From an uncultured delta proteobacterium (lineage in GTDB: Bacteria; Desulfobacterota; Desulfomonilia; Desulfomonilales; Desulfomonilaceae): DNA of 64,000 nucleotides. Location of the stretch: contig CAVVHK010000109.1 in the NCBI GenBank assembly GCA_963747865.1, positions 1-64,000 of the forward strand, written 5' to 3'. The translations under genes and the position numbers were made by a program. The notes beneath the pieces were generated by a model, which searched no databases, was not told the DNA's origin, and saw nothing but the letters and a program-made list of their open reading frames with translations. Within the stretch, counting starts at the first letter, position 1, and each line of letters starts with the position of its first letter. Below are positions 3,535-64,000 of this stretch, piece by piece.

Positions 3535-5337
3535 CTACCCTTCGGCCAACGACTCCAGGTGCTCCCACCGGGCGTAGACGTCGCGGAGTTGTTGTTCCAG
3601 CTCTTCCAAGCGGGCCTTGGCCTCGACGATCGCCAGACGGTCTTGCTGGTAGAAGGCCGGATCGGCCATCGTCTGGTGCAGCGAGGCGAGGTTTTTTTCC
3701 AGGGTCGCGATTCTCGCCGGCAAGGCGTCCAACTCGGCCCGCTCGGCATACTTCAACCGTCGTTGGGCCGGCGGCTTCTTGGCCGGTCGTGAAGCTTCCG
3801 TTTCCCGTTTCCCAGTGGAAGCCTCCGCAGGACCGGCGGCCGCTTGCCGCGTACGCCGCTGGAGCAGCCAGTCGTCGTAGCCGCCGGCATACTCGTGGAC
3901 TTCGCCGGCCCCTTCCAGGACCAGCGTGCTGGTGACCACGTGGTTGAGAAACTCACGGTCGTGGCTCACCAGCAACAGCGTGCCGGAGTATTCCAGCAGC
4001 AGGTCTTCCAAGAGCTCGAGGGTTTCGATGTCCAGGTCGTTGGTCGGCTCGTCCAGCACCAACAGGTTCGACGGCTTGGTGAACAGCCGCGCCAGGAGCA
4101 CGCGGTTCCGCTCGCCGCCGGAGAGCCGGGCCACCGGACTGCGGGCCTGCTCGGGCGTGAAGAGGAAGTCCTCCAGGTAGCCGATGATGTGACGCCGCTG
4201 GCCGTTGATCACCACCGCGTCGCTGCCGCCGGCGACGTTTTCCTGGATGGTCTTCTCGCCGTCCAACTGCGCGTGGAGCTGGTCGAAATAGGCCGGCTCG
4301 AGGTTCGTCCCGCGGCGGACGGTGCCCGCGGTGGGCTCCAGCTCGCCCAGCAGCATCCGCAGCAGCGTGGTCTTGCCCGAGCCGTTGGGACCGATGATCC
4401 CCACGCGGTCGCCCCGCATCACCAGCGTGGAGAAGCCGTTGAGGATCGTGCGCTGGCCGAAGCGATGGGCGACGCCCTTGGCTTCGATCACCAGCCGGCC
4501 CGATCGCTCGGCCTCGTGGAGCTCGCACCTCGATCGTGCCCGGCCGGTCGCGGCGTTGGCTGCGGATCTCCCGCATGGCCAATAGTGAGCGGACGCGGCC
4601 ATGGTTTCGCGTCCGCCGGGCCTCGATCTTGCGGCGGATCCAGACCTCTTCCTGGGCCAGCCGCTTGTCGAACAACGCCCGCTGGGCGGCCTCGGTCTCC
4701 AGGGCCGCTTGCTTGCGGACGAGGAACGTGTCGTAATCGCAGGACCAGCTCGTCAGCATGCCGCGGTCGAGTTCGATGATCCGCGTGGCCAGCTTGCGCA
4801 GCAGCACGCGGTCGTGGGTCACCATCGCCAGCGTGCCTTGAAAGCGGAGGAGAAAATCTTCCAGCCAGGTGATGGCTTCCAGATCGAGGTGGTTGGTCGG
4901 CTCGTCCAGCAGGAGCACGTCCGGTTCGGCGGCCAGGGCCCGGGCCAACAGCACGCGGCGCTTCATCCCGGCGGAGAGCACGGCCAGTTGGGCCTCGGGG
5001 TCCAGGTTCATGCGGCTGAGCACCTTCTCCACCCGGTAGTCGCCCGACAGACGGTGCTCCGGCCGGCGGCCGGCGGAGACGCAGTTGAAGACCGTGCCCG
5101 ACAGGTCGCCGGGGACCTCCTGGACCAGCATTGCGGTGACCAACTCCTGCTGGCGGACCACCTGGCCCTCGTCGGGTTCCAGCTCACCCTGGATGAGTCG
5201 CAGCAGGGTTGACTTGCCCTCGCCGTTGCGGCCCAGGATGCACAACCGCTCGCCGGGGTCGATCTGGAGCTGGACCCCGTCCAATACGCGGGGACCGCGG
5301 AAGCGGAGGCTGACGTCCCGCAAGCTGATCAAGGGCA
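3535..5337 (-). CDS. uup: ABC-F family ATPase (Uup-like, two ABC domains plus a C-terminal coiled-coil domain). It has one frameshift at about 4500-4600.
   Basis: N-terminal half (ORF 3953..5497, real start 'MPLISLRDVSL' at ~5337): Walker A 'GRNGEGKST', signature 'LSAGMKRRVLLARAL', Walker B 'LLLDEPTNHLD'. C-terminal half (ORF 3535..4602): 'GPNGSGKTT', 'LSGGERNRVLLARL', 'LVLDEPTNDLD', then a coiled-coil tail. Confidence 0.8.
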
Positions 5338-49876: not shown

Positions 49877-50486
49877 ATATGAACTCCTTTATCTTATCCG
49901 AATCCTTCTTGCCCGGAGACGCTTCCACTCCTGAGGAAACATCTACGGCAGCGGGTTGAATGGTTTCGATCGCTTCCGCCACGTTCGAGGGTGTGAGTCC
50001 GCCTGCCAGTATCAGTTTTCTCGCGGCGGAGGGAGGTTGTTGGAGAAGCTGTCGGCGCAGTTCTCTCCAATCCAAGGCTATGCCCGTTCCTCCCCATTGA
50101 TTTGGGACTCCGGTATCGACCAATACTGCCGTCGTGGGCCAATCGGAAATTACCGGCAGCGGATTTTCAGCGTTAAATCTGAACGCCTTGACAACAGGCA
50201 GAGAATACCCGCTTGCCTCGGCTACGCTTTCCGTTCCGTGCAACTGGATTATGCCAATGCCGGTCTTTGACACGATTTCTTCCACTTCCGGCCTCGGTGG
50301 GTTCACGAAAACTCCGACCGCAGAGACAAAAGGCGGCAATCGTTTGATAATTCCGGCCGCGGTTTCGGGCGCCACGTATCTGGAAGACTGGTTAAAGAAT
50401 ACGAAACCCAAGGCGTCCGCTCCAGCGTCAACTGCCGCAAAGGCGTCTTTCTCGGATGTTATGCCGCAAATTTTGATCCGGATCAT
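49839..50486 (-). CDS. trpF: Phosphoribosylanthranilate isomerase
   Basis: '[27 protein letters not shown]' matches TrpF. Confidence 0.9.
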
Positions 50487-50684
50487 GTGTTTACGCTCGC
50501 TTATAGTCGGCACCATCTTCGGTCGTTTGTTTCACCGGCGCCCGGGAACAAGACGAAAACCGAACCCCCTAAATCCCCCTTATCAGGGGGACTTCCTATT
50601 CCCCCCTGATAAACGGGGGCAGGGGGGTTGGCCTTTTCGTGACCGAATAAGGCGCCGGATTTTAGAAACAAAGCGCTCAGCCCA

Positions 50685-51467
50685 TCACCTACCCAGCAAC
50701 TCCCTTATCTTCGCCCCTGGATCGGGCGACCTTACGAGCGTCTCCCCGATAAGGAACACCGAAGCCCCAGCTTTAAGAATGTCTTCACGGGTTTTGATCC
50801 CGCTCTCGGACACCACGATTTTGTCCTTGGGAATATGCTCGATTGCTCTAAGCGTGGCGTCCAGATTCATTGAAAAGGTTTTCAGGTTACGGTTGTTTAC
50901 GCCGATAATCCTGGACTCCGCTTCCAGCGCTATATCAATTTCAGCGATTTCATGGGTCTCGACCAAAGGCTCCATACCCAGCGATCTGCCGAATTTCAGC
51001 AGCCGCGTCAGAGTAGCTCCATCCAATAGCCCGCTTATGAGCAGGAAGGAATCCGCGCCATACGCGCGGGCTTCGAAAATTTGATATTCGTCGAGGATAA
51101 AATCCTTCCTTAAAATAGGTTTGTCCACAACCTTTCGTACTGCCGCTAAATCTCCGATAGAGCCCTTGAAATGATCTTGTTCCGTCAATACCGAGATAGC
51201 CGACGCGCCACCTTCGACATAGCGCTTCGCCGTGGCTGCCGGGTCCAGGTCCGGGGCTATATCGCCCTTGGACGGAGAGGCTTTCTTTATCTCGGCGATT
51301 ATGTGGACACCGGGCTTGGACAATGCCGAGACAAAGTCCAAAGGCGGCGCTTGCCCGGCAGCCAGCCGTTCCAGCTCGGCAAGAGAGACCGCCTTCTTTT
51401 CTTTCTCCAGACGCTCTCGTCTAACAGCGGCGATTTTTTCCAGTATATTAACCATAATTTTGCTCAC
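50685..51467 (-). CDS. trpC: Indole-3-glycerol-phosphate synthase
   Basis: 'IAEIKKASPSKG', 'ISVLTE', 'ILRKDFILDEYQI', 'IGVNNRNL' match TrpC. Confidence 0.9.
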   Translation of the reverse strand: MSKIMVNILEKIAAVRRERLEKEKKAVSLAELERLAAGQAPPLDFVSALSKPGVHIIAEIKKASPSKGDIAPDLDPAATAKRYVEGGASAISVLTEQDHFKGSIGDLAAVRKVVDKPILRKDFILDEYQIFEARAYGADSFLLISGLLDGATLTRLLKFGRSLGMEPLVETHEIAEIDIALEAESRIIGVNNRNLKTFSMNLDATLRAIEHIPKDKIVVSESGIKTREDILKAGASVFLIGETLVRSPDPGAKIRELLGR

Positions 51468-51470
51468 GTT

Positions 51471-53180
51471 CTAGCAGCAGGGTATAAATGCAAGATATTG
51501 AGTAAGTTTTTCGAGAGCAGCCCCTGAATCCACAGACTGTGCGGCCAGTAGGAGTCCGTCCCGGAAATCATCGGCTTTTTCGGACACCACAAGCGCAGCC
51601 GCCGAGTTCAAGAGAGCTATGTCTCTGCGCGGTCCGGGTTTACCTGTAAGGATGTCCCTCAAATGCACAGCGTTCTCACTGGCGGCGCCGCCTGAAATGT
51701 CGCTCAATTCGCACTTGGACAGTCCAAGTTCTTCAGGGTCTAAGGTGAAAGTTGAAACTCTCCCGTCTTTTAATCGGCTTATCTTCGTAGGGCTGCACAG
51801 AGAGATTTCGTCAAGACCGTCCAGTCCGTGAGCCACCATAGCGGACTTGATTCCAAGGCCTTGAAGGGAGAAAGCTATTGGCTCGGTAAGGTCAGCGTCG
51901 TAGACTCCCATCAATTGGCAAGAAGCCCCCGCGGGGTTGGTCAACGGCCCCAATACGTTAAAGATGGTCCTTATCCCCATCTCCTGCCGTGCCCCCATGG
52001 CATACTTCATGGCTAGGTGGAACGACGGGGCAAAGAGAAAACCGAAACCGGTCTCCTTGATGCATTTGCCCACCTGATCGGGAGAATGGCTGAGATTGGC
52101 CCCAAGTTCCCTGAGCACGTCCGCGCTGCCGCATGAGCTGGATACCGATCTATTACCGTGCTTTGCCACCATAACGCCTGCTCCGGCCACTATGAAAGCG
52201 ACGGTCGTCGAAATATTGAAGGTTCCGGCTCCATCTCCGCCGGTGCCGCAAGTGTCGATGAGCGCTGAGCCGTCGTGGTCCACGCGCACCGGAAGGGCCT
52301 TGCTTCTCATGACGTGCGCGGCCCCGGTTATTTCTTCGACGGTCTCGCCTTTCATTTTAAGAGCCGTGAGAAACGATCCGATCTGCGCGCCGGTGGCGTT
52401 ACCGGACATAATGGTTTCCATAGCGTTTTCCATTTCGACGCGGCTGAGATTTTCGCCCTTGGTGGCCTTCTTTATAAATTCCTTGAACATGACTACCCCC
52501 TCAACTATGTTGGATTTTCCGGCGCTCGACGTGCATGGGACAGATTTAGGACCGGGATTCTCGGATAGGCTTGTAACTGCTTGGGGCCCAGTGGCTTGCT
52601 TGGACCGGAATTCTTCAGCCATCTTTAGAAAGTTGGCCAAAATGCGTTTTCCGCCGGTGGTGAGGATTGACTCCGGGTGAAACTGAACTCCTTCGATGGG
52701 AAGCTGTTTGTGTTTGATCCCCATTATCTCGTCCTGATCTGTGGTGGCAGTCACTTCCAGGCAATCCGGAAGCGATTCCTTGTCCACGATAAGGCTGTGG
52801 TACCTGCATGCGTCGAACGGATTGGGCATCCCGGCGAAAAGTCCTTGTTCCTCTGTAAAAATAGGGGATGTTTTCCCGTGCATGAGCCTGGGAGCCGAGA
52901 TCACATTGCCTCCGAATGACGCTCCAATGGCCTGATGCCCGAGACATACCCCGAGAATCGGAATGTCTGCGCCTAGTTGCTTTATGACGTCCATGGAAAT
53001 GCCGGCGTCCTCGGGACCACCCGGTCCAGGGGAAATAACTATCGCCTCGGGATTGGTCGAGCTTATTTCCGCAACCGTGGTCTGATCATTCCGCCGGACC
53101 ATGACCTCTTCGCCAAGCTCTTGAAAATACTGGACGAGATTAAATGTGAAAGAGTCGTAGTTATCGATTACGAGTATCAT
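51471..53180 (-). CDS. trpGD: Bifunctional anthranilate synthase component II (glutamine amidotransferase) / anthranilate phosphoribosyltransferase, TrpG-TrpD fusion
   Basis: N-terminal '[18 protein letters not shown]...GVCLGHQAI' (GATase). C-terminal 'DTCGTGGDG...[18 protein letters not shown]' (TrpD). ATGA overlap with trpE. Confidence 0.9.
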
Positions 53181-54694
53181 TTCCGCCTCCCTGGAAAAGT
53201 CTTGGCAATCGCAAGGGCCCGTTTCATGGCCTCGGCTTTTTTGATGGTTTCCTCGAATTCCCGCTCCGGGACGGAATCGGCGACTATCCCGGCTCCGGCT
53301 TGAAAGTAGGCGTTGGCGCCTTTCAGCATCACGGTTCGGATAGTGATTCCCATATCCATGGAACCGGAGTACGAGAAGTAACCCACACAACCACCGTATG
53401 GGCCTCTCCTGTCGGGTTCCAGATCCTCGATAATTTCCATGGCCCGGATCTTGGGCGCTCCGGACAAAGTGCCTGCCGGGAAAGTGGCCCTCAGAAGGTC
53501 GTAAGCGTCGTATCCTTCCGCAGGAATTGCTTTGACGTTGCTGACCATGTGCATTACGTGGGAGTATTTCTCTACCGTCTTGAACGCGTCCACAACTACG
53601 GTTCCAGGCTTCGCTATGCGGCCCAGGTCGTTCCGGGCCAAATCCACAAGCATCACGTGTTCAGCAAGTTCTTTCGAGTCCTTCAGCAGGTCTTCTTCAA
53701 GCGCCGCGTCAGCCTCGGGCGCCTTAGCCCTGGGACGTGTCCCGGCAATGGGCCGGACCACCGCTTCTCCGTTGCGCAGCCGGACCATGACTTCGGGGGA
53801 TGAGCCTGCCAGGACTTCATCATCGGCCTTGATGAAAAACATGTACGGAGATGGATTGATCGTCCTCAGACCGCGGTAAATGCTCAAAGGGTCGTGATTA
53901 AAGTTGCCCTGGAAGCGCTGTGAAAGGACCACTTGGATTATGTCGCCGGCCTTAATGTGATCTTTGGCCTCGAGCACCATGTTCTCGAATTGCTCTTGGC
54001 TCATGTTGGACACGAAAGTGGAACCGTCGGGGTCCGGCGCCGAACAAAGAGGGGGCGCAGGCGCGTCAAGCTTGCTGCGAAGCCTTTCAAGTCGGGCGCA
54101 GCCATCCGCGTAGGCGGTCGAAGTTGAATCGAACTCGTCTGGCCTCACCATGGTGGTTAGGATTATTTTGTGGAGGAAGTTATCAAAGATGAGGAGATCG
54201 CGAGTGATCATGAAACAGGCTTCAGAGAAACCCGGATCCGGTCTGTGTAAATCGGGAAGCCGTTCGAAGCCTCTGACCACGTCGTAGGAAAAGAACCCTA
54301 CTGCGCCTCCATAGAATTCCGGGCAGTCATCGAATTCGGCGGGGGTAAAAGAGGCCATCACCTGTTTCACAAATTCCGCCGCGTCCGACACTCCATTGAC
54401 CGTCGTGGTTTCTCCTCCTGCGGTAACACGCGCGATCCCATCGCGAATCCTGATTAAGGAATGAGGGTCTGATCCCAGAAAGGAATACCTGGCCCATCTT
54501 GTCCCTCCCTCAACGCTTTCCAAAAGAAAGCCGGCTCTGGAATCATCTATCTTCATGAACGCGGATAATGGAGTGTCCATATCCCCGGGAATTTCCATAA
54601 CGATCGGAATCAGGTTGCCGTGACTGCATAGAGTATCGAAGGTGTTGAAATCCGGCTTGATCATGAGCATTTCCTTTTGATAACCGCTGCGCAT
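53177..54694 (-). CDS. trpE: Anthranilate synthase component I
   Basis: The chorismate-binding domain '[17 protein letters not shown]' and overall TrpE similarity. Confidence 0.9.
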
Positions 54695-55084
54695 TGTTTC
54701 TGGACCTTAGGGTAGAGCTCCGCTTGAGGCTCTCTTCCACCTCTCAGGTCAAGACGCAGGATTTTGAAATTCTTCCTTGCAGGAAGGGGCAATGTATCGG
54801 GTACGATTTCAAGACGTTTCACTGTGTTGTAACCTTATAACTAAGCGACTTAACTATGTTTTATAGTTGCCTGATGGAGAACAAAGATCCAGTGTCACGG
54901 ATGGATGCGCCCCGCCTTATGGAATTGAGCCGGACTCAATTCCCTTACATGCTTACTTGTTGAATGTGGGCCTTATTTGGACTCCCGAAGCCGCTCTTCA
55001 AATGTTCTTTGTCTCCTAGCGGCTTTCAAAAGGCATTTGCCCTGATGAATGGTCGGGAGGCGACAAGCTGACTTCATAAACGCA

Positions 55085-55120
55085 AAAAAGCCATGAGCGA
55101 TCTGCCCATGGCTTTTGTTA
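55085..55120. terminator. Bidirectional rho-independent terminator-like hairpin (gccatgagcgatctgcccatggc flanked by A/T runs)
   Basis: aaaaaagccatgagcgatctgcccatggcttttgtt. It would terminate the minus-strand SCP2 gene and isolates the trp operon leader. Confidence 0.5.
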
Positions 55121-55285
55121 ACGATCTAATTGAGTTGTCAGTTAGCCGTCGCTAGGCAGACCTCCCGTGTTGTTTTCTCCAGCGCCACCACCAATTTCTT
55201 AGGCTGTTGATTTTACACATAGTCGTCTACCTTTTGTCTCAGGTTACATGAACCCCATTTAATTGTCAACAATTATTTCGTTCAA

Positions 55286-55615
55286 TTATGACATCGGAAA
55301 TAGAGACGGGATCCTTTGAGCAGCCATTATATCTCCGGTGGCCCGGAGTTTACCGGTCATAAACGCCGTCATGCCGTTGAGCTGGCCGTTACACATGGCA
55401 AGCCAGTCCACGTCAACCATACTTAGAGTCACATTCGGGCCGGCATGCACACCTTTGCTGACTGAGCATGCGCCGTCCTGAACGCTCACATTCCATTCGC
55501 CCGCTTGGGCGCCGGAAATACTGAATTGGTAAATCAAGTTCAATCCTGCCGCTGCGGCAGCGTTAAATACCTGAGGCATTTTTTCGAAAACTTCTTCAAC
55601 TGAAGTGAATCCCAT
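55286..55615 (-). CDS. SCP2 (sterol-carrier-protein-like) domain protein
   Basis: 'AAAAAGLNLIYQFSISG...TAFMTGKLRATGDIMAAQRI' matches the SCP2 fold. Confidence 0.6.
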   Translation of the reverse strand: MGFTSVEEVFEKMPQVFNAAAAAGLNLIYQFSISGAQAGEWNVSVQDGACSVSKGVHAGPNVTLSMVDVDWLAMCNGQLNGMTAFMTGKLRATGDIMAAQRIPSLFPMS

Positions 55616-55749
55616 TTCTACTCCTTCTAGGGCTAAATTCAATCAACTATTCAGTCGGTCGCCGCAATGACACAGGCGACAACTGAGCATCACCGCCACT
55701 TTATTGCACAAAATGGAAACAAGTGAAAGCTTTTTTGGTAAGCGTTCGT

Positions 55750-55785
55750 CGGGAGGAAACTCATTTGTGCAAAAGGGTTTCCCGG
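55750..55785. repeat. Family A palindrome (cgggaggaaactcatttgtgcaaaagggtttcccgg)
   Basis: Lies just downstream of the HtrA stop. Confidence 0.7.
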
Positions 55786-55798
55786 TGAAATATTACTC

Positions 55799-56974
55799 TT
55801 AGCTCTGCATACCCGGATCTTCTCCCAACTTTAGGTCCACCACATGTTCTTTGTTGTTCCTCAGAAACTTCACGCTGACCTGGTCACCTACATTTTTCCG
55901 CAGTATCACGCTCTGAAAATCATCATAAGTCGGCGTGGGCACCCCGTCGACCGCCAGGATAACATCACCCCCGAGCACCAGCGGCCTTCCGTCTATGACC
56001 ACAGGCCGGTTGCCGTAATAGGCGATCTGGCTCCCGCCCTTAAGCCCTACCTGGGCAGCGGGGCTCCCGTGAGCCACCTCGAAGATGAGTATCCCTCTGA
56101 CCGGAGCTAGGCCCATCAGCTCCGCGACTTTAGGGTCAAGATCCATATATGATTTTATGCCCAACCACGGGTAAATGGCGCGGCCATGCCGGAGAATCTG
56201 GTCGGCCACCTTTTTGGCCCTGTTTATGGGCACGGCCAGACCGATTCCCATGAATCCGCCGGTCTGACTGTAAATGGCGGAATTCACACCGATTACTTCA
56301 CCTCGAGAGTCTATGAGCGGTCCTCCGGAATTCCCGGGATTGATGGCCGCGTCGGTTTGAATCAGCCCCATCATCGTACGTTGGCCGATGGCAAGGTCGC
56401 GGTTCAAGGCGCTGACAAAACCCGCCGTAACTGTGTGTTGGAAGCCGAACGGGTTACCGATGGCTATGCTCCGCTGTCCGACGACTAAGGAATCCGAGTT
56501 GCCCATAGGCGCCACTTTCATCTCTGGGAACGGGTCCACTTTGATTACAGCCAAATCGCTTACCGGATCTTTGCCCACGAGCCGCGCTTTGACTTTACGC
56601 TCCCCTATGAAGGTGACTTCCAGGATTTCGGCGTTGGATACCACGTGGTTGTTTGTGAGTATGTATCCCCTGGGATCTATGACGAAACCGCTTCCTTGGC
56701 CCACTTGAGGGACGGGCTGCATCCAGAAGTTTACCCCTAGGCTGGTGGCGACTATGTTTACGACTGCGGGGCTGACGGTACGATAGACGTTTATCACCAC
56801 GGCTTCGCCGCTCTCCAGGGCTTCATACTTGGGCGCAGGCTCAGGGGGCGGCTGTGGTATCAGGTGGGGGGGCGAGGTCCTTTGTTGCAACCATAGCCCG
56901 GCAATTACACCGACACCGAATATCACAACAAAGGTGATAAAAACGGACCATTTTCTGGAATTCATTGAATCCAA
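55799..56974 (-). CDS. htrA: HtrA/DegP-family periplasmic serine protease with a PDZ domain
   Basis: N-terminal TM. 'GSGFVIDPRGYILTNNHVV', 'GNSGGPL' (catalytic Ser). C-terminal PDZ 'GILIFEVAHGSPAAQVGLKGGS'. Confidence 0.9.
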   Translation of the reverse strand: MDSMNSRKWSVFITFVVIFGVGVIAGLWLQQRTSPPHLIPQPPPEPAPKYEALESGEAVVINVYRTVSPAVVNIVATSLGVNFWMQPVPQVGQGSGFVIDPRGYILTNNHVVSNAEILEVTFIGERKVKARLVGKDPVSDLAVIKVDPFPEMKVAPMGNSDSLVVGQRSIAIGNPFGFQHTVTAGFVSALNRDLAIGQRTMMGLIQTDAAINPGNSGGPLIDSRGEVIGVNSAIYSQTGGFMGIGLAVPINRAKKVADQILRHGRAIYPWLGIKSYMDLDPKVAELMGLAPVRGILIFEVAHGSPAAQVGLKGGSQIAYYGNRPVVIDGRPLVLGGDVILAVDGVPTPTYDDFQSVILRKNVGDQVSVKFLRNNKEHVVDLKLGEDPGMQS

Positions 56975-57237
56975 CCGTCAGGCAAGTATGGGGAAAGCAT
57001 TTTAGGCAGATTCTGAATTGCGCGTCCAGCGTTGGACCAAACTGAATCGTTCTGCGCTATTTCAGGATTAGGGTTCGCTTGAGGTCGCTCTTGATTCGAC
57101 TCCGGATAGATGGGACTTGATGCGTAAACTACGGGTCGCCCTCTCTGGTCCCGGCTATAGTATCCGTATCCCAGAGTCTCGCCTGTGACGGTCAGAACCC
57201 GGATCTGGTCCGACTGGGGTCCTGAGGACATCAACAT
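56962..57237 (-). CDS. Small hypothetical protein between the PBP1A and HtrA genes
   Basis: 91-aa ORF whose start overlaps the PBP stop and whose end overlaps the HtrA start. Weak support. Confidence 0.2.
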   Translation of the reverse strand: MLMSSGPQSDQIRVLTVTGETLGYGYYSRDQRGRPVVYASSPIYPESNQERPQANPNPEIAQNDSVWSNAGRAIQNLPKMLSPYLPDGWIQ

Positions 57238-59883
57238 GGGGCGCCGGTGTAAGGATCATTCAAGCCGGGGGTTGAGGCGTAATCCAGATCAACGCGAGAA
57301 ACTTGTTTCAATTCCGGGCTGGGGGCAAAGTCAGGGGAGGCCTCCAGCAACGCGTCCTTGGGCGCCTTACCGGAATAGGCCGCAGAATCCAGAAATACGA
57401 TGCCGGGTGGGGTAGGGTAGTTGCTCGCCGGAGTACTGCTCAGCGCTGCGTTCATGAAATCCATCCATACCGGTAGCGCCGCTGTTCCTCCGTGTTCTTG
57501 CCTGCCGAGGGTGGTCTTGGTGTCGTGGCCGACCCAGACCCCTGTGGTGTAAGTGGGGTTGGAGCCCACGAACCAGGCGTCGGAACAATCATCCGTAGTC
57601 CCGGTCTTGCCCGTCAGGTCCCGGCGCTTCATCTTTGCAACGCTTGAAGCGGTTCCCGACACGCACACATCCCTCATCATACTCAGCATTAAGTAAGCTG
57701 TCTGAGGAGTCATTATCCTGGGCATCGGCGCTGTGAGGGACTCCAATCTCACGGGAAGGATTCGATGCGATGGAATTTCCTTCACGGGAACGTTTACCCG
57801 GGGCGCGTTTGGAGCAGAAAAGCGGCCGGGGTCGAACTGGCCTGATAGAGCGGTATAGGGCGCGTTGGGTTGCGCTTGGTATTGCGGAGCCTGCTCCTCC
57901 TCGTTTTCGGAATCATCCGGGTCCTCTTCGGGTTGCTCGGGCGCAGGTTGTTCAAGGACTTGTTCGCTCTGCTTGGCAAACAACTCCGGTTGGTCTTCGA
58001 CCATTCTCTCGGCTGGGTTTAAAGGCTCTACAGTGTTGTCTTCCAGCGCCTTACCGAAGCGGTCAACGACTTTTTTCACAAATACCGGGTTGGTCCTTAC
58101 ACCCATATTGGGAAAGACGGTGTATGCGCTTGTGAGTTCGAGAGGCGTGACTTCCGACGCCCCCAGAGCCAGCGATAGGTTTTTTCCCAAGGGCGAGTTG
58201 AGTCCCGACAGCTTGGCCATTTCAATAGCCCTGTCCAGACCGACGTCCATAAGCAATTTTATTGCTACGATGTTGCGAGAATGCGCCAGCCCCTGCCTCA
58301 AAGTCAGCGGTCCCTGAAACTGGTTGTCCGCGTTCGCAGGCAACCATTGTTCGTCCCGTCCCACCTGGACGGCGATCGGATCATCGATGATCACCGTGTT
58401 GGGACTGTACATGGTCCATTCTAGGGCAGCGGCGAAGACGAACGGTTTAAAAGCGCTTCCAGGTTGACGCATCGCCTGCGTAGCCCTGTTGAAGTTGGAA
58501 CGTTCGAAATCCATCCCACCCACAAGGGCGCGCACGTAACCTGTATTGTTTTCCACGCAGACCACAGCCCCTTGAACTCCAGGCGTGGTATCTTGGTCAA
58601 GGACTGTCTGGCCGTTCTGCACTTCGGACACCCGGAACTGGACAACGTCATTTGGCTTGTACTTGATGTTGCTAACCAGAGTCATGCGGAATTGCCGATT
58701 TCCCTGGAGGGCGAGGGCGCAATCCTGTAACTGATCCTCAGGCTTGCTTTTTCCCTTCTTCTGGGTCTGATTGACCGAATGGTTCGCTATGACAAGACCT
58801 TGGACGTAATCTCCAACTTTATAGGTCTGGTCTGGAGCCGAGGCCAGAAATTCCTTGGCTTCCGCAGGCTTCAGTCTTTTCACCAACCCCGCGGGACGGC
58901 CCTGTCGTTTCTCCCACAGCAGACCTCCCTTGAGCAGGGAATCCGCCGCAGATTTCTGCATTTTAACGTCGCAAGTTGTCCATACCTGCAATCCTTCATT
59001 GTACAGCTTGTTTTCGCCGTATTTTGACAATATGTATTGGCGTACTGTCTCAGTAAAATAGGGGACCCGCTCGTAAGGGTTCGGCTGAGATTCTATTATT
59101 GCGGGAACGCTCGCTCCGGCTTCCTTAAACTCGCCCTCTGTGATGAAACCGTGCTTCAGCATTTGTCCCAGCACGAACTCCCGACGCTTCAACGCTCCTT
59201 CCAAATTCTTCTGAGGAGACAATTTGTTGGGATTCTGCACCAGGCCTGCAAGAAGCGCAGCTTCAGCTACGGAAAGGTCTTTGGTGGTTTTGCCGAAATA
59301 GGTCCTGGCCGCGGACTCTATGCCGTAAGAACGGTTACCCATATAGATTTCGTTGAGATACAATTCGAGTATCCGTTGTTTGGATAGGGTTTTTTCGAGC
59401 CTGAAGGACAGAATGACTTCCCGGATCTTTCGCGAGATTTTCTTTTCTTTGGTGAGCAGGAAGTTGCCGCGTTACCTGCTGGGTAATGGTGCTTCCACCC
59501 TGAGCAAAGCTGCCCTCTGTGAGATTCTTGGCGAGAGCTCTGACAACTCCGAAGATGTCAATCCCGGAATGGCTGAAGAAGCGGGCGTCCTCAGCGGCAA
59601 GGAAAGCGTTAACAACTTTTGGCGGGATTGATTCCAACGGTATGGGGAATCGTTTTTCTTTGAAGAACAGGCCGATTACAGAGCCGTCTTCAGCATAAAA
59701 CGTGGACACGGTCTTTGGGCGGTACGCCTGCAAGTCTGGAATTTTGGGCAAATCAGCGGAAAAGACTATGTAGGAGCCCGCTGTCGCGCCCAACAGACCC
59801 GAGATAACGGCGCAGCACACCAGCGCCGGGATTCCGGCTATGAACCAGGCGAGCGCCTTTGCCGAACTGAATTTATACCTCAT
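57231..59883 (-). CDS. mrcA: Class A penicillin-binding protein 1A (glycosyltransferase + transpeptidase). It has one frameshift near 59400-59470.
   Basis: GT51 motifs 'EDARFFSHSGID', 'GGSTITQQ'. After the frame switch: 'YLNEIYMGNRSYGIESAA'. Transpeptidase motifs 'SAFKPF' and 'KTGTT'. Confidence 0.85.
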
Positions 59884-60394
59884 TTGGAATGGCCGGCCCT
59901 ATCTATACAGCTCCATCAACAAAAATGAAGGCGCCTACATCAGGCTACAACGCCCGCATGCCTCGGAAGAGCTTTCTACGTTAGGCTTTGCAACGCCCCT
60001 GATGTCCCGGTCTTCTGTGCGCTCAAATCGGGAATACTGCACGCGAGCCGATGTCGGTCGCTCATTTAATGTAATTAGTTTAAATGATCGGAGATTTTAC
60101 GTCAAGAAATACAGCGCTTCGCTAGTCAAGTATTCCGACGTCCAGGTAACGAACGGCCCTTAGAAGGCTGTCGAAGGCCGGCGCATTTCATCTTTGAAGA
60201 GACGGTCTGCGTATAGTCGTTGAGAAGCCCGTGGCCGCCGGGTAGCGCAATCGCCGCACGGCCGTCGCTTGAAGTCAAGCTAGGAAGCGATCGCGTCGCC
60301 TTCATAGACGGAACTGAACACATATAGTTGTCCTCCTTGGGCTTCGCTTCGCGGGGGACTTAAAGTGTTGCTTCAAAGGCAACAAAACTAACTA

Positions 60395-60560
60395 TGTCAT
60401 TGCTGCGCTCGCAATGACAACTTTATCGCTCCACCCATGCGAAAAACACCGCAATTTTCAACGCGGATCACTATTAAGGAACGGAAAAGCAGGTTTTCAC
60501 TCACAGGGGAGAGATTGCTTCCTCCGCTGGAAGCGGAGTCGCAAAGACAAGCGCAAATGT
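60395..60560. repeat. Diverged, inverted copy of the family D nested-palindrome element
   Basis: gagattgcttcctccgctggaagcggagtcgcaaagacaagcgcaaatgtcattcc...aagcaatctc is the reverse complement, with rearrangement, of the 26.6 kb copy core. Confidence 0.55.
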
Positions 60561-60721
60561 CATTCCTGGGAGTGAAACGACGAAGCAATCTCAAAACTTG
60601 CCGCTCATGAGTGAAGCGTTACAATGCGGAAGTTGCGTTGAGTCGATTATTGTTCTAAGTTCATGATGGACAGTCAAGTACCTTCCAAAATTCACATGCC
60701 CACAGAGGCACGGCAGGCGCC

Positions 60722-62155
60722 ATGCGTTGGGGAATCTTAACAAACCTGGCCATTATCCTGGTCATAAGCGGAGCGCTGCTATTCGCTGTGTTCAGCGCTT
60801 CTTTGGAGCGTTCGGCGATAGACCTTAAGATCCAACAAGCCGACACCATCTCGGATATCATCGAACACAATATACTGGGTTCAGGCGATTCCGAACAAAT
60901 GTGGGAACGTGTCCGCAGCTTTTGCAGAGGACGTCCTAATTTCAGATTTCAGCTTTGTGACGCCGCAGGCAAAGTGCTCGGATCCTGCAACATGAAGAAG
61001 GAATTGCAGGAACCTTTGTCTAAAGAGCCGGGCAGAAGATTTAAGGTCGTTGGAGTAGGCTGGCCTACCAATTTGTTCAGAGGCGGATTCGTAGTTGCGG
61101 ACACGGTTGGGCCGTTTCGCAATGGTGTCAATAGCTTGCGTGTAACTGTGGAACTTCCCGCGTCGGTGTTTTCCTCAGCCTGGAGGTTTTTCGCGGCTTA
61201 CTTGGCGCTGACCCAGTCCGCTCTGTTCTTCCTTGGATACATCCTGTTTCATCGCACTGTGGTGGGTCCGGTCAGCGAAATTGCGAACCTCGCAAGCAAA
61301 GGCGCCGGTTTGAGCACCGCTCCCACAATGGCGGACACCATGAATCTCAAGGGGGACATCCAACAAATTGCCCTCAGCATCCGTGGGATGCTGGCCAAGA
61401 TTGTGAGCGACAGAGAAAAGATGGCGGCGTTGATAGAACAACTTCAAACCGCCAACAAGGATCTGGAAGCCGCGGAGCAGAGTCTGATCAGGACCGAAAA
61501 GTTGGCGGGAATCGGGCGCCTTGCCGCGGGCGTTGCCCACGAGGTGGGTAATCCTCTCCAGATCATAATGGGATATGTGGAATTGCTGCAACGCAGGGCC
61601 GAAGGCTCGAATCTGGAGATCTTGGACAGAGTGGATCAGGAGCTCAAAAGGATTCACGACATCCTGCGGCGTCTACTGGAGTATGCCCGTCCGGAACGCA
61701 GGTGCGTCACTCCCTGCGACATAAATTCGTTGGTATCGGATTGCAGCGACCTGCTGAAGGGACGAAAAGGTTTCAGGAATTGCGATTTCGAGCTTTCCCT
61801 TGATCCGAATTTACCTATGGTCAAGACCGAGCCCGAGAAGCTCAGGCAAATCATCGTAAATCTGTTGTTCAACGCTGCGGACGCCATACCGGACTCAGGG
61901 GGAAAAATAACCCTCCAGACCTTGCGACTGGAAAACAAAATGGAAATCCTGGTCAGGGATACAGGCTGCGGAATCCCACCGGAAAATCTTGAAAAGGTCT
62001 TTGATCCTTTCTTCACGACAAAGGAGCCCGGCAAGGGCACAGGATTGGGTCTGGCGGTTTGCCTCGGCCTTGTGGAATCAATGGGGGGAGAAATCAGCCT
62101 GGAATCACAGTTGGGGGAGGGGACAACGGTGACGGTGAGATTTCCGGTAGGGTAG
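60722..62155 (+). CDS. Sensor histidine kinase (2 TM + HAMP-like + HisKA + HATPase_c)
   Basis: H-box 'AHEVGNPLQII'. N-box 'LLFNAADAI'. G-boxes 'DTGCGIP', 'GTGLGLAV'. Confidence 0.85.
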   Translation: MRWGILTNLAIILVISGALLFAVFSASLERSAIDLKIQQADTISDIIEHNILGSGDSEQMWERVRSFCRGRPNFRFQLCDAAGKVLGSCNMKKELQEPLSKEPGRRFKVVGVGWPTNLFRGGFVVADTVGPFRNGVNSLRVTVELPASVFSSAWRFFAAYLALTQSALFFLGYILFHRTVVGPVSEIANLASKGAGLSTAPTMADTMNLKGDIQQIALSIRGMLAKIVSDREKMAALIEQLQTANKDLEAAEQSLIRTEKLAGIGRLAAGVAHEVGNPLQIIMGYVELLQRRAEGSNLEILDRVDQELKRIHDILRRLLEYARPERRCVTPCDINSLVSDCSDLLKGRKGFRNCDFELSLDPNLPMVKTEPEKLRQIIVNLLFNAADAIPDSGGKITLQTLRLENKMEILVRDTGCGIPPENLEKVFDPFFTTKEPGKGTGLGLAVCLGLVESMGGEISLESQLGEGTTVTVRFPVG

Positions 62156-62248
62156 GGGAGCCGCGAATTCCAAGTCGTAAACGATCCAACAAATTACTGA
62201 CAACGTCCGTTCGGAATCGTCAAAAAAGCTATTTTGGCGGAGACTTTT

Positions 62249-62625
62249 ATGGATCAACAACCGGACCATGTTCAGGCCTATGCGAGTCTGTTGATGGGGA
62301 CATTGTTCCTGGTAACTGCCGCCGCAAGCCTTATGAAGAGCGAGTGGAGAACCTCCCTTGGAATGACCAATGTCGACACGGCCATCCATTTCGCTGCGGG
62401 TGCCGCTCTTGTAACGCTCGGTTTGCTCGACCTGAAGGAGCTGATAATTTCAGTAGGTTTCTCGCCTCCCTATCCCTTGTGTTCGGCATTTACGTAAGCC
62501 TGTCGGCCTACGGTGGTCTCTACACCGCTCATGAAAGAACTGGAATGAAGGTTCTGTATTTGCTTGTCGGAGTTGTGTGCATTGTATCGTCCGTTTATGA
62601 AGGAATTTGGATTTACTTCAATTGA
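62249..62625 (+). CDS. Small hypothetical membrane protein. It may be frameshifted near 62455.
   Basis: 'LLMGTLFLVTAAASL...AIHFAAGAALVTLGLLD' then continues in frame +2: 'LASLSLVFGIYVSLSAYGG...LYLLVGVVCIVSSV'. Confidence 0.3.
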
Positions 62626-62704
62626 GGGCTATGATGGCTCGATGTTGTGATCTTCGCCGCCACATCCCCAAAAAATATTGAAATGAGATGACTGACCAAA
62701 AGAA

Positions 62705-63199
62705 CTAACTTCCTCCACCGCTCCACATCAGTGGAAACCAAAAACCTTTCAATTTGGCCTTTTGCACTCGTTGCACGAACACGTCATTGACGTATATCCA
62801 GGAGCCCGGCATTTGCGGTATCTTGAATATGGTGGCGCCCACCAGCTTGTCTGCGAAAAACGAGTAATCATCGATGTAAAATACCCGCCCGTCATCATAT
62901 CTATCCAAGGTGGACTTGATCTCGTCCAAGGCGTCAATAATTCGAGTTAAGTTATAGAAATAATACTCTTCGCCCGCTATTTTTACCGGAAGTATTTCTC
63001 CGTTTGCCTCCAGAATGTCTCGCAAAGCCGATACCGCTTTTCGGGTGAAAACTGGGACGCTTGGAACCAAGGAAGGATAATCGCCCTTGGGCATGGAAGA
63101 CATGTCCGGGTCCCATCCCATTTTTACGTCCATCCAAGGGCGATTCATCGGCTTTCCGTCAAAGCGACGAGAGAATTCCGTAAGATCGCCGACCGTCAT
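62705..63199 (-). CDS. Hypothetical protein, member 1 of a tandem paralog array
   Basis: Aligns along its length with the 63413..63904 product ('MSRRF.G.P...DVK.GWDPDM.SMPKGD.PSL.P.VP.F.R.AV.ALRD.LE.NGEILPV.IAG.EY..YN.TR..DALDE' and a C-terminal 'KGFWFPL.WS'). Confidence 0.5.
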   Translation of the reverse strand: MTVGDLTEFSRRFDGKPMNRPWMDVKMGWDPDMSSMPKGDYPSLVPSVPVFTRKAVSALRDILEANGEILPVKIAGEEYYFYNLTRIIDALDEIKSTLDRYDDGRVFYIDDYSFFADKLVGATIFKIPQMPGSWIYVNDVFVQRVQKAKLKGFWFPLMWSGGGS

Positions 63200-63412
63200 T
63201 ATCAGGCTTTTGTGACTTGCTAGACTTGGCCCGCAGTTTATAAATGTTCATGATTGGGTTCCCTATTTCGGGAGTTTCCCCTTTGACAACGAATCTATCG
63301 GAACGCCGCTGTAGGAAGGCAACGACGCGACGGGACCATCCGGACTGGAAAACCATAGCACCCGGCTTTACTTAGAGAGCTCTAGTCATCTCTCAGTGGC
63401 GCCTGATACCGT

Positions 63413-63904
63413 CTACTCGCTGCTCCAGAGAAGGGGAAACCAAAAGCCCTTCAACCCTGCGGCTTGAACCCGTCGCACGAATGGGTCAGTGACAAAAACC
63501 GATCCGTCGATCTCTTGCGGAATTTTGAAGACGATCATTCCCGAGACTTTCTTTTCGAAGAATGCGAAATCGTGGATAGTCAAGACATCAGAACTGTCCT
63601 TAAATCTGACGATATCCGATCCGGATTCGTCCAAAGCGTCCACCACTCGGGTCACGTTGTAGAGGAAATACTCGGCTCCGGCGATCATCACGGGCAGGAT
63701 TTCCCCATTAGGCTCCAGCAAGTCTCTCAATGCCGCCACGGCTCTTCGAGAGAAAATGGGAACATTGGGTATCAAAGACGGAAAATCTCCTTTGGGCATG
63801 GACAACATGTCCGGATCCCATCCAATCTTCACGTCTTTACCCAGAGTCTTGACGGGAGCGCCATTGAAGCGCCTAGACATGTCAAAAAGATTACCTGCCG
63901 TCAT
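63413..63904 (-). CDS. Hypothetical protein, member 2 of the tandem paralog array
   Basis: See above. Roughly 50% identical to member 1. Confidence 0.5.
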   Translation of the reverse strand: MTAGNLFDMSRRFNGAPVKTLGKDVKIGWDPDMLSMPKGDFPSLIPNVPIFSRRAVAALRDLLEPNGEILPVMIAGAEYFLYNVTRVVDALDESGSDIVRFKDSSDVLTIHDFAFFEKKVSGMIVFKIPQEIDGSVFVTDPFVRRVQAAGLKGFWFPLLWSSE

Positions 63905-63965
63905 AATTAGGCCCCGATAACTGTTCGAAGCAGCACGCAGGAAATAGCCTTTCATGATGTAATCT

Positions 63966-64000
63966 TTATTTCCCACTCCAGAGAAGCGGAAACCAGAAGC
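63966..64000 (-). CDS. 3' end of a third paralog (C-terminal '...FWFPLLWSGK*'). The rest lies beyond the window.
   Basis: The reverse-strand translation of 63966-64000 gives FWFPLLWSGK-stop, the same tail as members 1 and 2. Confidence 0.4.
   Translation of the reverse strand, partial: FWFPLLWSGK

What the first reader, a model, noticed from the sequence alone, without database searches (positions are those of the whole stretch)
62705..64000. Tandem array of at least 3 diverged paralogs (~160 aa) on the minus strand at the window edge
Members at 62705-63199, 63413-63904 and the 3' end at 63966-64000 share a conserved core (MSRRFxGxP...GWDPDMxSMPKGDxPSLxPxVPxFxRxAVxALRDxLExNGEILPV...KGFWFPLxWS). 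They are only about 50% identical to each other.

Arrays of divergent small paralogs like this are typical of immunity-protein cassettes downstream of polymorphic toxins, or of other fast-evolving accessory loci. The toxin, if any, would lie beyond the window end.
Basis: inference. Interest (0 to 1): 0.55.

Follow-up and report, generated by a model that had tools for sequence, protein, structure and literature searches.

The report
Tandem Imm11 nuclease-immunity gene array
Three neighbouring genes at the window edge encode Imm11-family immunity proteins, which protect bacteria from AHH-type DNA-cutting toxins of competitors; this is a new example of a well-described arrangement.

Summary
Three minus-strand paralogs lie at 62705-63251, 63413-63955 and 63966-64000 (the last is only the 3' end). 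The details need correcting: the proteins are about 180 aa rather than 160, and identities are 59-74% rather than about 50%.

Both complete copies score above Pfam's cut-off for Imm11 (PF07791). The AlphaFold model of copy 2 has one significant PDB match, MXAN_0049, the Imm11 protein shown experimentally to neutralise the AHH nuclease MXAN_0050. In 42 of 75 related loci with upstream DNA, an AHH nuclease gene ends a few bases before the homolog.

About 33 nt upstream of copy 1 match the last 10 codons and stop of such a toxin gene ("DSLSKGKLPK*"). Copy 1 therefore looks like a displaced toxin-tail plus immunity cassette.

Copy 1's short N-terminus comes from a +1 frameshift in an A4 run. This is probably an assembly error, because PBP1A nearby is also frameshifted.

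No toxin lies within the window. A profile search found no close AHH toxin called on the 67.8-kb source contig, so I lean towards an orphan polyimmunity locus. The DNA beyond 64000 could not be read.

This is a new member of a known kind and of low interest.

The parts
62705..63251 (-). Copy 1 (P1), an Imm11-family immunity gene. It is full length (about 181 codons) once a +1 frameshift in the A4 run at 63208-63211 is removed. As it stands, the longest ORF is 62705-63199 (164 aa, identical to P0001).
   Evidence: ORF. Pfam Imm11 52.4 bits against a cut-off of 22.1. P0001 is 100% identical. The frameshift repair gives MNIYKLRAKSSKSQSLIMTVGDL..., which matches the family N-terminus.
63263..63295 (-). 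Remnant of the 3' end of an AHH toxin gene: 10 codons, DSLSKGKLPK, plus a TAG stop at 63265-63263. It sits where the toxin gene ends in intact toxin-immunity pairs, 11 nt before the ATG of copy 1.
   Evidence: DNA alignment to the toxin-immunity junctions of L001-L003. nhmmer with the toxin 3'-end profile gives E=6.7e-4. Toxin tails in 16 loci end ...LSKGxFPK*...LSRGKFPR* and similar. The junction profile of 16 loci has its best hit in the whole window here, 63291-63261, E=0.0039, with the next hit at 0.25.
63296..63412 (.). Spacer of unknown origin between the stop of copy 2 and the toxin-tail remnant.
   Evidence: No similarity to any of the 90 fetched loci. No toxin-profile hit. The 65-aa ORF 63159-63356 has no Pfam hit.
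63413..63955 (-). Copy 2 (P2), an intact 180-aa Imm11-family immunity gene, identical to P0007.
   Evidence: Translation. Pfam Imm11 46.2 bits. P0007 sequence. AlphaFold model with pLDDT 80.7. Its only significant PDB fold match is 6a4c MXAN_0049, E=7e-5, TM 0.62.
63956..63965 (-). 10-nt gap between the stop of copy 3 and the ATG of copy 2. The spacing is as tight as that between toxin and immunity genes in relatives, and there is no toxin-tail remnant.
   Evidence: Sequence. Junction comparison.
63966..64000 (-). 3' end of copy 3 (P3), FWFPLLWSGK*. The rest of the gene lies beyond the window. On the source contig it was called as 145 aa (P0002), starting at a conserved internal Met.
   Evidence: Translation. 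P0002 ends ...KGFWFPLLWSGK and sits on the same 67,799-nt contig.

Best explanation
The locus is a homogeneous Imm11 polyimmunity array. It holds three tandem, co-oriented genes for cytoplasmic immunity proteins of about 180 aa.

**Mechanism (inferred).** By analogy with MXAN_0049 and MXAN_0050, each protein binds the C-terminal AHH (HNH/EndoVII-fold) nuclease domain of a small polymorphic toxin. This blocks DNA degradation, whether the toxin is made by the cell itself or injected by a neighbour.

**Two sequence subtypes.** Copies 1 and 3 are sisters, and copy 2 sits on a separate branch with its own closest relatives in other organisms. The array probably widens the range of toxin variants the cell can survive.

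**Assembly from cassettes.** Copy 1 still carries the last 10 codons and the stop codon of a toxin gene in front of it. It was therefore once the immunity half of a toxin-immunity pair whose toxin has been lost or displaced.

**Shown here:**
- family membership;
- fold;
- toxin linkage in relatives;
- the toxin-tail remnant;
- subtype structure.

**Inferred:**
- binding and neutralisation;
- co-transcription;
- that the array is currently orphan, with no live cognate toxin on the contig. I put that sub-claim at about 0.55.
For: - **Pfam:** PF07791 Imm11 scores 52.4 and 46.2 bits against a gathering score of 22.1.
- **Fold:** the AlphaFold2 model of copy 2 (pLDDT 80.7) has one significant PDB match, the solution structure of MXAN_0049 (6a4c), with E=7e-5, probability 1.00 and TMq 0.62. 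The sequence profile also picks 6a4c as its only PDB hit, at E=0.1.
- **Literature:** MXAN_0049 binds and neutralises the nuclease MXAN_0050. M. xanthus has 14 ahh and 20 imm11 genes, with one or two extra imm11 genes behind some toxins, and cross-protection occurs at 46% identity (PMC12077181). Imm11 is listed as partner of Tox-AHH, Tox-HNH and Tox-SHH and as forming homogeneous polyimmunity loci (PMC3482391).
- **Linkage in close relatives:** L001, L002, L003 and the contigs of P0003 and P0006 each have a PF14412 AHH protein ending 0-15 nt before the homolog.
- **Linkage across 90 loci:** 42 of the 75 with upstream DNA have an adjacent AHH ORF. Five of those have two immunity copies, and L090 has three.
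- **Toxin-tail remnant upstream of copy 1:**. Similar remnants lie between tandem copies in L016 and L019.
- **Conservation:** all 25 invariant family residues are kept in all three window copies.
- **Subtypes:** the tree places copies 1 and 3 as sisters at 73%, while copy 2 is closest to L013 (67%) and P0005 (66%).
- **Orphan status:** no AHH or toxin N-terminal domain is found anywhere in the window. None of the best 120 of 164 toxin-profile hits lies on a 67,799-nt contig, whereas the three Imm11 proteins of that contig were found readily.
Against: - The Pfam match covers only the C-terminal half (residues 75-155, profile positions 103-189 of 194), and identity to MXAN_0049 is 19%.
- The model is confident in only one of five AlphaFold runs, and residues 101-150 have pLDDT of 52-66.
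- No binding or protection data exist for this clade.
- As assembled, copy 1 is frameshifted, and copy 3 was called N-terminally short (145 aa), so one or two copies could be defective.
- The DNA upstream of copy 3 was not seen. A live toxin may sit there, in which case the array is the tail of a toxin operon and not an orphan locus.
- 33 of the 75 relatives with upstream DNA lacked an AHH detectable with my narrow profile, so linkage is frequent but not universal.
Confidence: 0.85

Rival explanations
1. The array is the immunity tail of an intact toxin-immunity operon. A live small AHH toxin gene lies just beyond 64000, immediately upstream of copy 3. Copy 3 would be its cognate immunity gene, and copies 2 and 1 would be extra or displaced immunity genes.
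For: - In relatives the commonest arrangement is the toxin directly upstream, and five loci show toxin-imm-imm.
- M. xanthus toxin loci sometimes carry one or two extra imm11 genes.
- In CDI and Rhs systems, displaced cassettes lie downstream of the live pair (general knowledge). The toxin-tail remnant before copy 1 fits that pattern.
- The contig has up to about 3.8 kb more sequence.
Against: - The toxin-profile search returned fragments as short as 109-127 aa from other contigs, but nothing on a 67,799-nt contig among its best 120 of 164 hits.
- Copy 3 was called from an internal Met (145 aa). That suggests its 5' end, and therefore a tight toxin junction, is disturbed.
Confidence: 0.35
2. 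The copies are decaying relics, that is pseudogenes left after loss of a toxin system, and no longer function.
For: - Copy 1 has a +1 frameshift after codon 14-17.
- Copy 3 was called 35 residues short.
- The Shine-Dalgarno sequence before copy 1 is weakened: TAGGGAAC against TAGGAGG in relatives.
- No toxin is detectable.
Against: - All invariant residues are retained in all three copies, and there are no internal stops in 164, 180 and 145 codons.
- The frameshift sits in a homopolymer, and its repair restores the conserved SLIM motif, so it is very recent or an artefact.
- PBP1A, 3.7 kb away, is also split by a 1-nt indel inside its transglycosylase domain.
- The related MAG L003 shows the same kind of error. 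This points to assembly indels.
Confidence: 0.1
3. The proteins are not immunity proteins but have some other, unrelated role, and the Imm11 resemblance is superficial.
For: Only half the protein matches the Pfam model, and identity to the characterised member is 19%.
Against: - The score is about twice the Pfam cut-off.
- The characterised Imm11 protein is the only fold match.
- The genes are tightly linked, by 0-15 nt, to AHH nuclease genes in dozens of unrelated contigs.
- There are no hits to NCBIfam or any metabolic family.
Confidence: 0.03

Closest known systems
MXAN_0049 (Imm11) / MXAN_0050 (AHH nuclease), a T6SS kin-discrimination pair of Myxococcus xanthus, and its homologous pairs (Gong et al. 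2018; Wang et al. 2025, as summarised in PMC12077181)
   Same: - Same Pfam family, with the same fold by Foldseek.
- Relatives of the window genes sit directly downstream of PF14412 AHH genes.
- Extra imm11 genes behind a toxin are known there too.
- Divergent copies (down to 46% identity) can cross-protect.
   Different: - Only 19% identity to MXAN_0049.
- The associated toxins in this clade carry an N-terminal domain of about 75-90 aa with no Pfam match, rather than recognised T6SS (PAAR or VgrG-linked) or lipoprotein modules.
- No T6SS genes occur among the window ORFs I scanned.
- No toxin has been seen next to the window array.
Homogeneous polyimmunity loci (Zhang, de Souza, Anantharaman, Iyer & Aravind 2012, PMC3482391)
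   Same: Tandem paralogs of a single immunity family, with Imm11 explicitly listed, often without an associated toxin. They are interpreted as protection against several toxin variants from competitors.
   Different: - This array is small, with three called copies on the contig.
- Whether it truly lacks a toxin is unresolved.
Orphan CdiA-CT/CdiI and Rhs-CT/RhsI modules (displaced toxin-tip plus immunity cassettes downstream of the main gene; from my own knowledge, not checked in a paper here)
   Same: An immunity gene preceded by a 3' fragment of a toxin gene, lying in tandem behind other immunity genes.
   Different: - The remnant here is tiny, 10 codons as against hundreds of bases.
- It has no start and no catalytic residues.
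- The parent toxins are small single-domain-tip proteins.
SitA5/SitI5 outer-membrane-exchange toxin-immunity pairs of myxobacteria (AHH-Imm11; PMC12077181)
   Same: The same AHH-Imm11 domain pairing, in multiple paralogous loci per genome.
   Different: SitA toxins are lipoproteins with a lipobox. The toxins linked to this clade show no such N-terminus in the sequences read.

Membership tests
Imm11 (Pfam PF07791, formerly DUF1629) | Sequence score above Pfam's gathering cut-off | tested here: met
   52.4 and 46.2 bits against a cut-off of 22.1, although only profile positions 103-189 of 194 are aligned.
Imm11 (Pfam PF07791, formerly DUF1629) | Alpha+beta fold of the prototype MXAN_0049 | tested here: met
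   The AlphaFold2 model (pLDDT 80.7, pTM 0.78) was searched with Foldseek against the PDB. 6a4c is the only hit with E<=0.001: E=7e-5, TMq 0.62, rmsd 6.0 Å over 190 columns. The fit is moderate.
Imm11 (Pfam PF07791, formerly DUF1629) | Gene lies directly downstream of an AHH, HNH or SHH nuclease toxin gene | tested here: inconclusive
   - Met in relatives: 42 of 75 loci with upstream DNA, and 5 of 5 of the closest contexts read.
- In the window, only a 10-codon toxin-tail remnant precedes copy 1.
- Copy 2 follows copy 3 directly.
- The DNA upstream of copy 3 is outside the window.
Imm11 (Pfam PF07791, formerly DUF1629) | Binds and neutralises its cognate nuclease toxin | not testable with these tools
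   Known only for the M. xanthus members (PMC12077181).
Homogeneous polyimmunity locus | Several tandem paralogs of one immunity family | tested here: met
   Three co-oriented copies with gaps of 10 and 161 nt.
Homogeneous polyimmunity locus | No associated toxin gene in the operon | tested here: inconclusive
   No toxin domain occurs in the window, and no close AHH toxin is called on a 67,799-nt contig. However, the DNA beyond 64000 was never read.
Orphan (displaced) toxin-tip/immunity cassette | Immunity gene preceded by a 3' fragment of a toxin gene lacking its 5' part | tested here: met
   Met for copy 1: DSLSKGKLPK* at 63295-63263, with nhmmer E=6.7e-4 and 0.0039 and the top hit of the whole window. 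Not met for copy 2.

The most novel reading that the evidence does not exclude
The array may be a toxin-less immunity island directed against a so far undescribed group of small polymorphic toxins (250-380 aa) in Desulfomonile-like deltaproteobacteria.

**A shared toxin N-terminal domain.** These toxins share an N-terminal domain of about 75-90 aa (ETEKQRRWWFATHPE...LIKFWFGTEFESKTPAE). It has no Pfam match, and I saw no signal peptide. It is fused to at least seven different toxin tips, which implies an unknown delivery route.

**A possible recombination site.** The short, conserved toxin tail plus ribosome-binding site (LSKGxFPK*-GGAGG) may be where immunity genes are added one by one. That would explain why 5-10-codon toxin tails recur between tandem copies in the window, in L016 and in L019.
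Probability: 0.25. Interest if true: 0.45.

Novelty: new member of a known kind. Interest (0 to 1): 0.2.

Why it matters
It matters little beyond annotation. These ORFs, unnamed in the protein collections I searched, can be labelled as Imm11-family immunity genes against AHH nucleases. The organism, probably a Desulfomonile-like anaerobe, can be flagged as taking part in contact-dependent or otherwise toxin-mediated competition.

Two modest points go slightly further:
- The 10-codon toxin-tail scar gives a concrete footprint of how such arrays are assembled.
- The associated toxins outside the window carry an unannotated N-terminal domain that may mark an unstudied delivery route.

Tried and rejected
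- **Retrieving the DNA beyond 64000 failed.**
  - Exact-product look-ups for copy 1, both versions of copy 2, and copy 3 found nothing on record.
  - Cluster look-up gave no accession or name.
- **No synteny.** tblastx of window 52001-64000 against L001-L010 matched only the immunity genes, so flanks of relatives cannot be used to infer what lies upstream.
- **NCBIfam:** no hit.
- **Viral contigs:** no relative. PHROGs gave no hit for the immunity protein.
- **Hidden toxin or fourth copy in the window:** a six-frame profile search found none.
- **Longer toxin remnant in the 161-nt spacer:** only the last ~33-52 nt match. The other ~115 nt match nothing.
- **Promoter and terminator scan of 62000-64000:** fewer sites than in shuffles, so uninformative.
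- **Mobile-element signs:** no tRNA in 50000-64000 and no inverted repeats around the array. GC is only slightly lower than in the flanks (0.45-0.53 against 0.50-0.58).
- **dN/dS between copies:** not attempted. The DNA of copy 3 is unavailable, and copies 1 and 2 are too diverged (59% aa identity) for synonymous sites to be informative.

Full report
**1. What is in the sequence**

The minus strand carries an ORF at 62705-63199 (164 aa) and one at 63413-63976. BLASTP between the two cores gives 59% identity over 161 residues, E=4e-71.

The last 33 in-frame bases of the window, 63998-63966, translate to FWFPLLWSGK*. This is the C-terminus of a third paralog. The repeat finder independently reports three DNA copies in register at 62721, 63423 and 63976.

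**2. Corrections to the description**

A protein search with copy 1 returned 16 relatives. Three are on one 67,799-nt NCBI/ENA contig, evidently the source:
- P0001 is copy 1 (164 aa).
- P0007 is copy 2 (180 aa, starting at 63955).
- P0002 is copy 3 (145 aa, 74% identical to copy 1).

An exhaustive profile search found 5,491 cluster representatives. Nearly all of the best 150 are 175-195 aa and cover profile positions 1-176. The family length is about 180 aa.

*Copy 1 frameshift.* Copy 1 has the matching start, MNIYKLRAKSSKSQ, at 63251, but in another frame. There are 52 nt (17 codons plus 1) before the internal ATG. Deleting one A of the AAAA run at 63208-63211 yields ...SQSLIMTVGDL, which restores the conserved SL[IL]M motif.

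*Probable cause.* The PBP1A gene 3.7 kb away (57231-59883, minus strand) is also split by a 1-nt indel inside its transglycosylase domain. The related MAG locus L003 shows frameshifts in both toxin and immunity genes. I therefore regard the copy 1 frameshift as most likely an assembly indel. A very recent mutation cannot be excluded.

*Copy 3.* It was called from a conserved internal Met (145 aa). Its 5' end lies outside the window.

**3. Family assignment**

- Both complete copies hit Pfam Imm11 (PF07791) at 52.4 and 46.2 bits against a gathering score of 22.1. Only the C-terminal half is aligned. NCBIfam has nothing.
- An AlphaFold2 model of copy 2, built from the 16-sequence alignment, reached pLDDT 80.7 and pTM 0.78. 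Only one of five models was confident, and residues 101-150 are weak. The N-terminal 20 residues form two confident strands.
- Foldseek against the PDB gave exactly one significant match: 6a4c, the solution structure of MXAN_0049, with E=7e-5, probability 1.00 and TMq 0.62. The sequence profile also had 6a4c as its only PDB hit, at E=0.1.
- MXAN_0049 is the InterPro prototype of Imm11. It was shown to bind and neutralise the nuclease toxin MXAN_0050 (PMC12077181).

**4. Genomic linkage in relatives**

Among the closest relatives, a PF14412 AHH nuclease protein of 260-376 aa ends 0-15 nt before the Imm11 homolog. These are L001 (JGI), L002 and L003 (uncultured deltaproteobacterial MAGs), and the contigs of P0003 and P0006.

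I then surveyed all 90 fetched loci with profiles of the immunity protein, the AHH domain and the toxin N-terminal domain.
- Of the 75 loci with at least 400 nt upstream or a detected neighbour, 42 have an adjacent AHH ORF.
- Five of those have two immunity copies after the toxin (L017, L019, L061, L076, L081).
- L090 has three copies, and L016 and L049 have two.
- 33 loci show no AHH with my narrow profile. These are mixed: one has a sequence that resembles a SUKH-type immunity protein by eye (L007), two have large toxins carrying an AHH motif (L077, L088), and some have nothing recognisable (L011).

This matches the literature. Imm11 partners with Tox-AHH, Tox-HNH and Tox-SHH and forms homogeneous polyimmunity loci (PMC3482391). 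M. xanthus DK1622 has 14 ahh and 20 imm11 genes, with one or two extra imm11 genes behind some toxins.

**5. Anatomy of the window array**

*Gap between copies 3 and 2.* The stop of copy 3 and the ATG of copy 2 are 10 nt apart. This is the same tight spacing as between toxin and immunity genes elsewhere.

*Gap between copies 2 and 1.* These are 161 nt apart, and the proximal part of this spacer is homologous to the 3' end of AHH toxin genes. MAFFT aligns 63299-63248 with the toxin-immunity junctions of L001-L003. In the toxin frame it reads DSLSKGKLPK-TAG. Real toxins end in:
- DLLSLGKFPL*
- DQLSRGKFPR*
- DRLSKGEFPK
- EQLSKGNFPK*

The stop codon is at the equivalent position, 11 nt before the immunity ATG.

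*Significance of the match.* nhmmer with a profile of the last 450 nt of three toxin genes hits only this site, at E=6.7e-4 over 4 kb. A profile of the 60 nt preceding the immunity ATG in 16 loci, searched over the whole 64-kb window on both strands, has its best hit at 63291-63261 (13.5 bits, E=0.0039). The next hit is at E=0.25.

*Rest of the spacer.* The remaining ~115 nt (63296-63412) match nothing.

*Same feature elsewhere.* Comparable short toxin tails sit between tandem copies in L016 (LSNGTFPK* followed by GGAGG) and L019 (TFPK* followed by GGAGG).

Copy 1 therefore looks like the immunity half of a former toxin-immunity pair whose toxin was deleted or displaced. It resembles the orphan toxin-tip/immunity cassettes of CDI and Rhs loci (my own knowledge) in miniature.

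**6. Relationships among the copies**

On a neighbour-joining tree restricted to the region present in copy 3, copies 1 and 3 are sisters at 73% identity. P0003 and P0004 are their next relatives. Copy 2 branches separately, and its closest relatives are L013 (67%), P0005 (66%) and L011 (65%), not its neighbours.

The two copies in L016 and in L017 likewise fall into two different subclades. Such arrays therefore combine distinct subtypes and are not runs of fresh duplicates. All 25 invariant positions of the family alignment are retained in the three window copies.

**7. Is there a toxin?**

Within the window there is none. Six-frame profile searches for the AHH domain, for the toxin N-terminal domain and for further Imm11 copies found only copies 1 and 2.

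The genes on the other side of the array are housekeeping:
- a histidine kinase;
- PBP1A;
- an HtrA-type protease;
- trpE, trpGD, trpC, trpB and trpA.

No tRNA or inverted repeats flank the array, and GC is only slightly lower than in the flanks.

Beyond 64000 the DNA could not be obtained. As an indirect test I searched the protein collection with a profile of three cognate toxins. There were 164 hits, including fragments of 109-127 aa from other contigs. None of the best 120 is on a 67,799-nt contig. By contrast, the three Imm11 proteins of that contig had been found at once.

This leans towards an orphan polyimmunity locus, at about 0.55. It does not exclude a toxin of another family, an uncalled gene, or a gene cut by the contig end. 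I put the toxin-operon rival at about 0.35.

**8. Mechanism**

*Shown:* family, fold, toxin linkage in relatives, cassette scar and subtype mix.

*Inferred from the M. xanthus work:*
- Each protein stays in the cytoplasm, binds the AHH nuclease domain and blocks DNA cleavage.
- Copies that differ by 27-41% probably cover overlapping but non-identical sets of toxin variants. Cross-protection has been seen at 46% identity.
- The tight spacing of copies 3 and 2 suggests co-transcription and translational coupling.
- The Shine-Dalgarno sequence of copy 1 is weaker than in relatives (TAGGGAAC against TAGGAGG).

**9. Comparison and novelty**

This is a member of Imm11 by score and fold. In arrangement it is a homogeneous polyimmunity array, with an orphan-cassette scar. 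Both are described phenomena. The family is large, with 3,223 representatives at E<=1e-10. I rate it a new member of a known kind, with interest 0.2.

The only mildly new aspects lie largely outside the window.
- **Toxin N-terminal domain.** The linked toxins share an N-terminal domain of about 75-90 aa with no Pfam match.
  - It is fused to AHH, NucA/NucB, Tox-GHH, LHH, DUF2380, Tox-REase-5 and PF21111 tips.
  - This suggests an uncharacterised trafficking module.
- **Recurrent toxin tails.** Toxin tails of 5-10 codons recur between tandem immunity genes. This hints that the conserved toxin tail plus RBS junction acts as a recombination site. That is an inference only.

Noticed in passing
window 57231-59883 (-), frameshift near 59464-59471: The class A penicillin-binding protein (PBP1A) gene is split into two overlapping ORFs by a 1-nt indel inside the transglycosylase domain. 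Pfam Transgly positions 4-82 fall in one ORF and 110-177 in the other. This suggests indel errors in the assembly, which bears on the frameshift in immunity copy 1.
   Followed up: partly
L001 4507-4776; L002 8964-9233; also L014, L017, L019, L020, L026, L029, L030, L032: The AHH toxins next to the closest relatives share an N-terminal domain of about 75-90 aa (ETEKQRRWWFATHPE...LIKFWFGTEFESKTPAE). It has no Pfam hit at E<=1. The same domain is fused to other toxin tips (PF14040, PF15636, PF14411, PF09533, PF15648, PF21111). It may be an undescribed trafficking domain of small polymorphic toxins.
   Followed up: partly
L016 about 680-712; L019 about 4995-5012: Short toxin-tail remnants (LSNGTFPK* and TFPK*, each followed by GGAGG) lie between tandem Imm11 copies, as upstream of copy 1 in the window. 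The toxin-tail/RBS junction may be a recurrent breakpoint.
   Followed up: partly
window 62156-62704 (+ strand ORFs 62059-62625 and 62234-62497): The 550 nt between the histidine kinase and copy 1 hold two overlapping plus-strand ORFs with hydrophobic stretches and no Pfam hit. This could be a small membrane protein, perhaps also frameshifted.
   Followed up: no
contig of P0003 (JGI sample 3300075153, no DNA held): Here the AHH-Imm11 pair sits between a Peptidase_M15_3 gene and a phage SU10_adaptor gene, which hints at a prophage context for some members. No relative was found in IMG/VR viral contigs.
   Followed up: partly
L001 3063-4139; L002 11333-12074; L003 11784-12525: HigB/HigA-type toxin-antitoxin genes lie within 1-2 kb of the AHH-Imm11 pair in all three closest loci. 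In those genomes the pair sits in an accessory, conflict-gene-rich region, unlike the housekeeping flank seen in the window.
   Followed up: no
L003 8752-10456: Both the AHH toxin and the Imm11 gene of this MAG are broken by frameshifts. This is again consistent with long-read assembly indels in these deltaproteobacterial MAGs.
   Followed up: no
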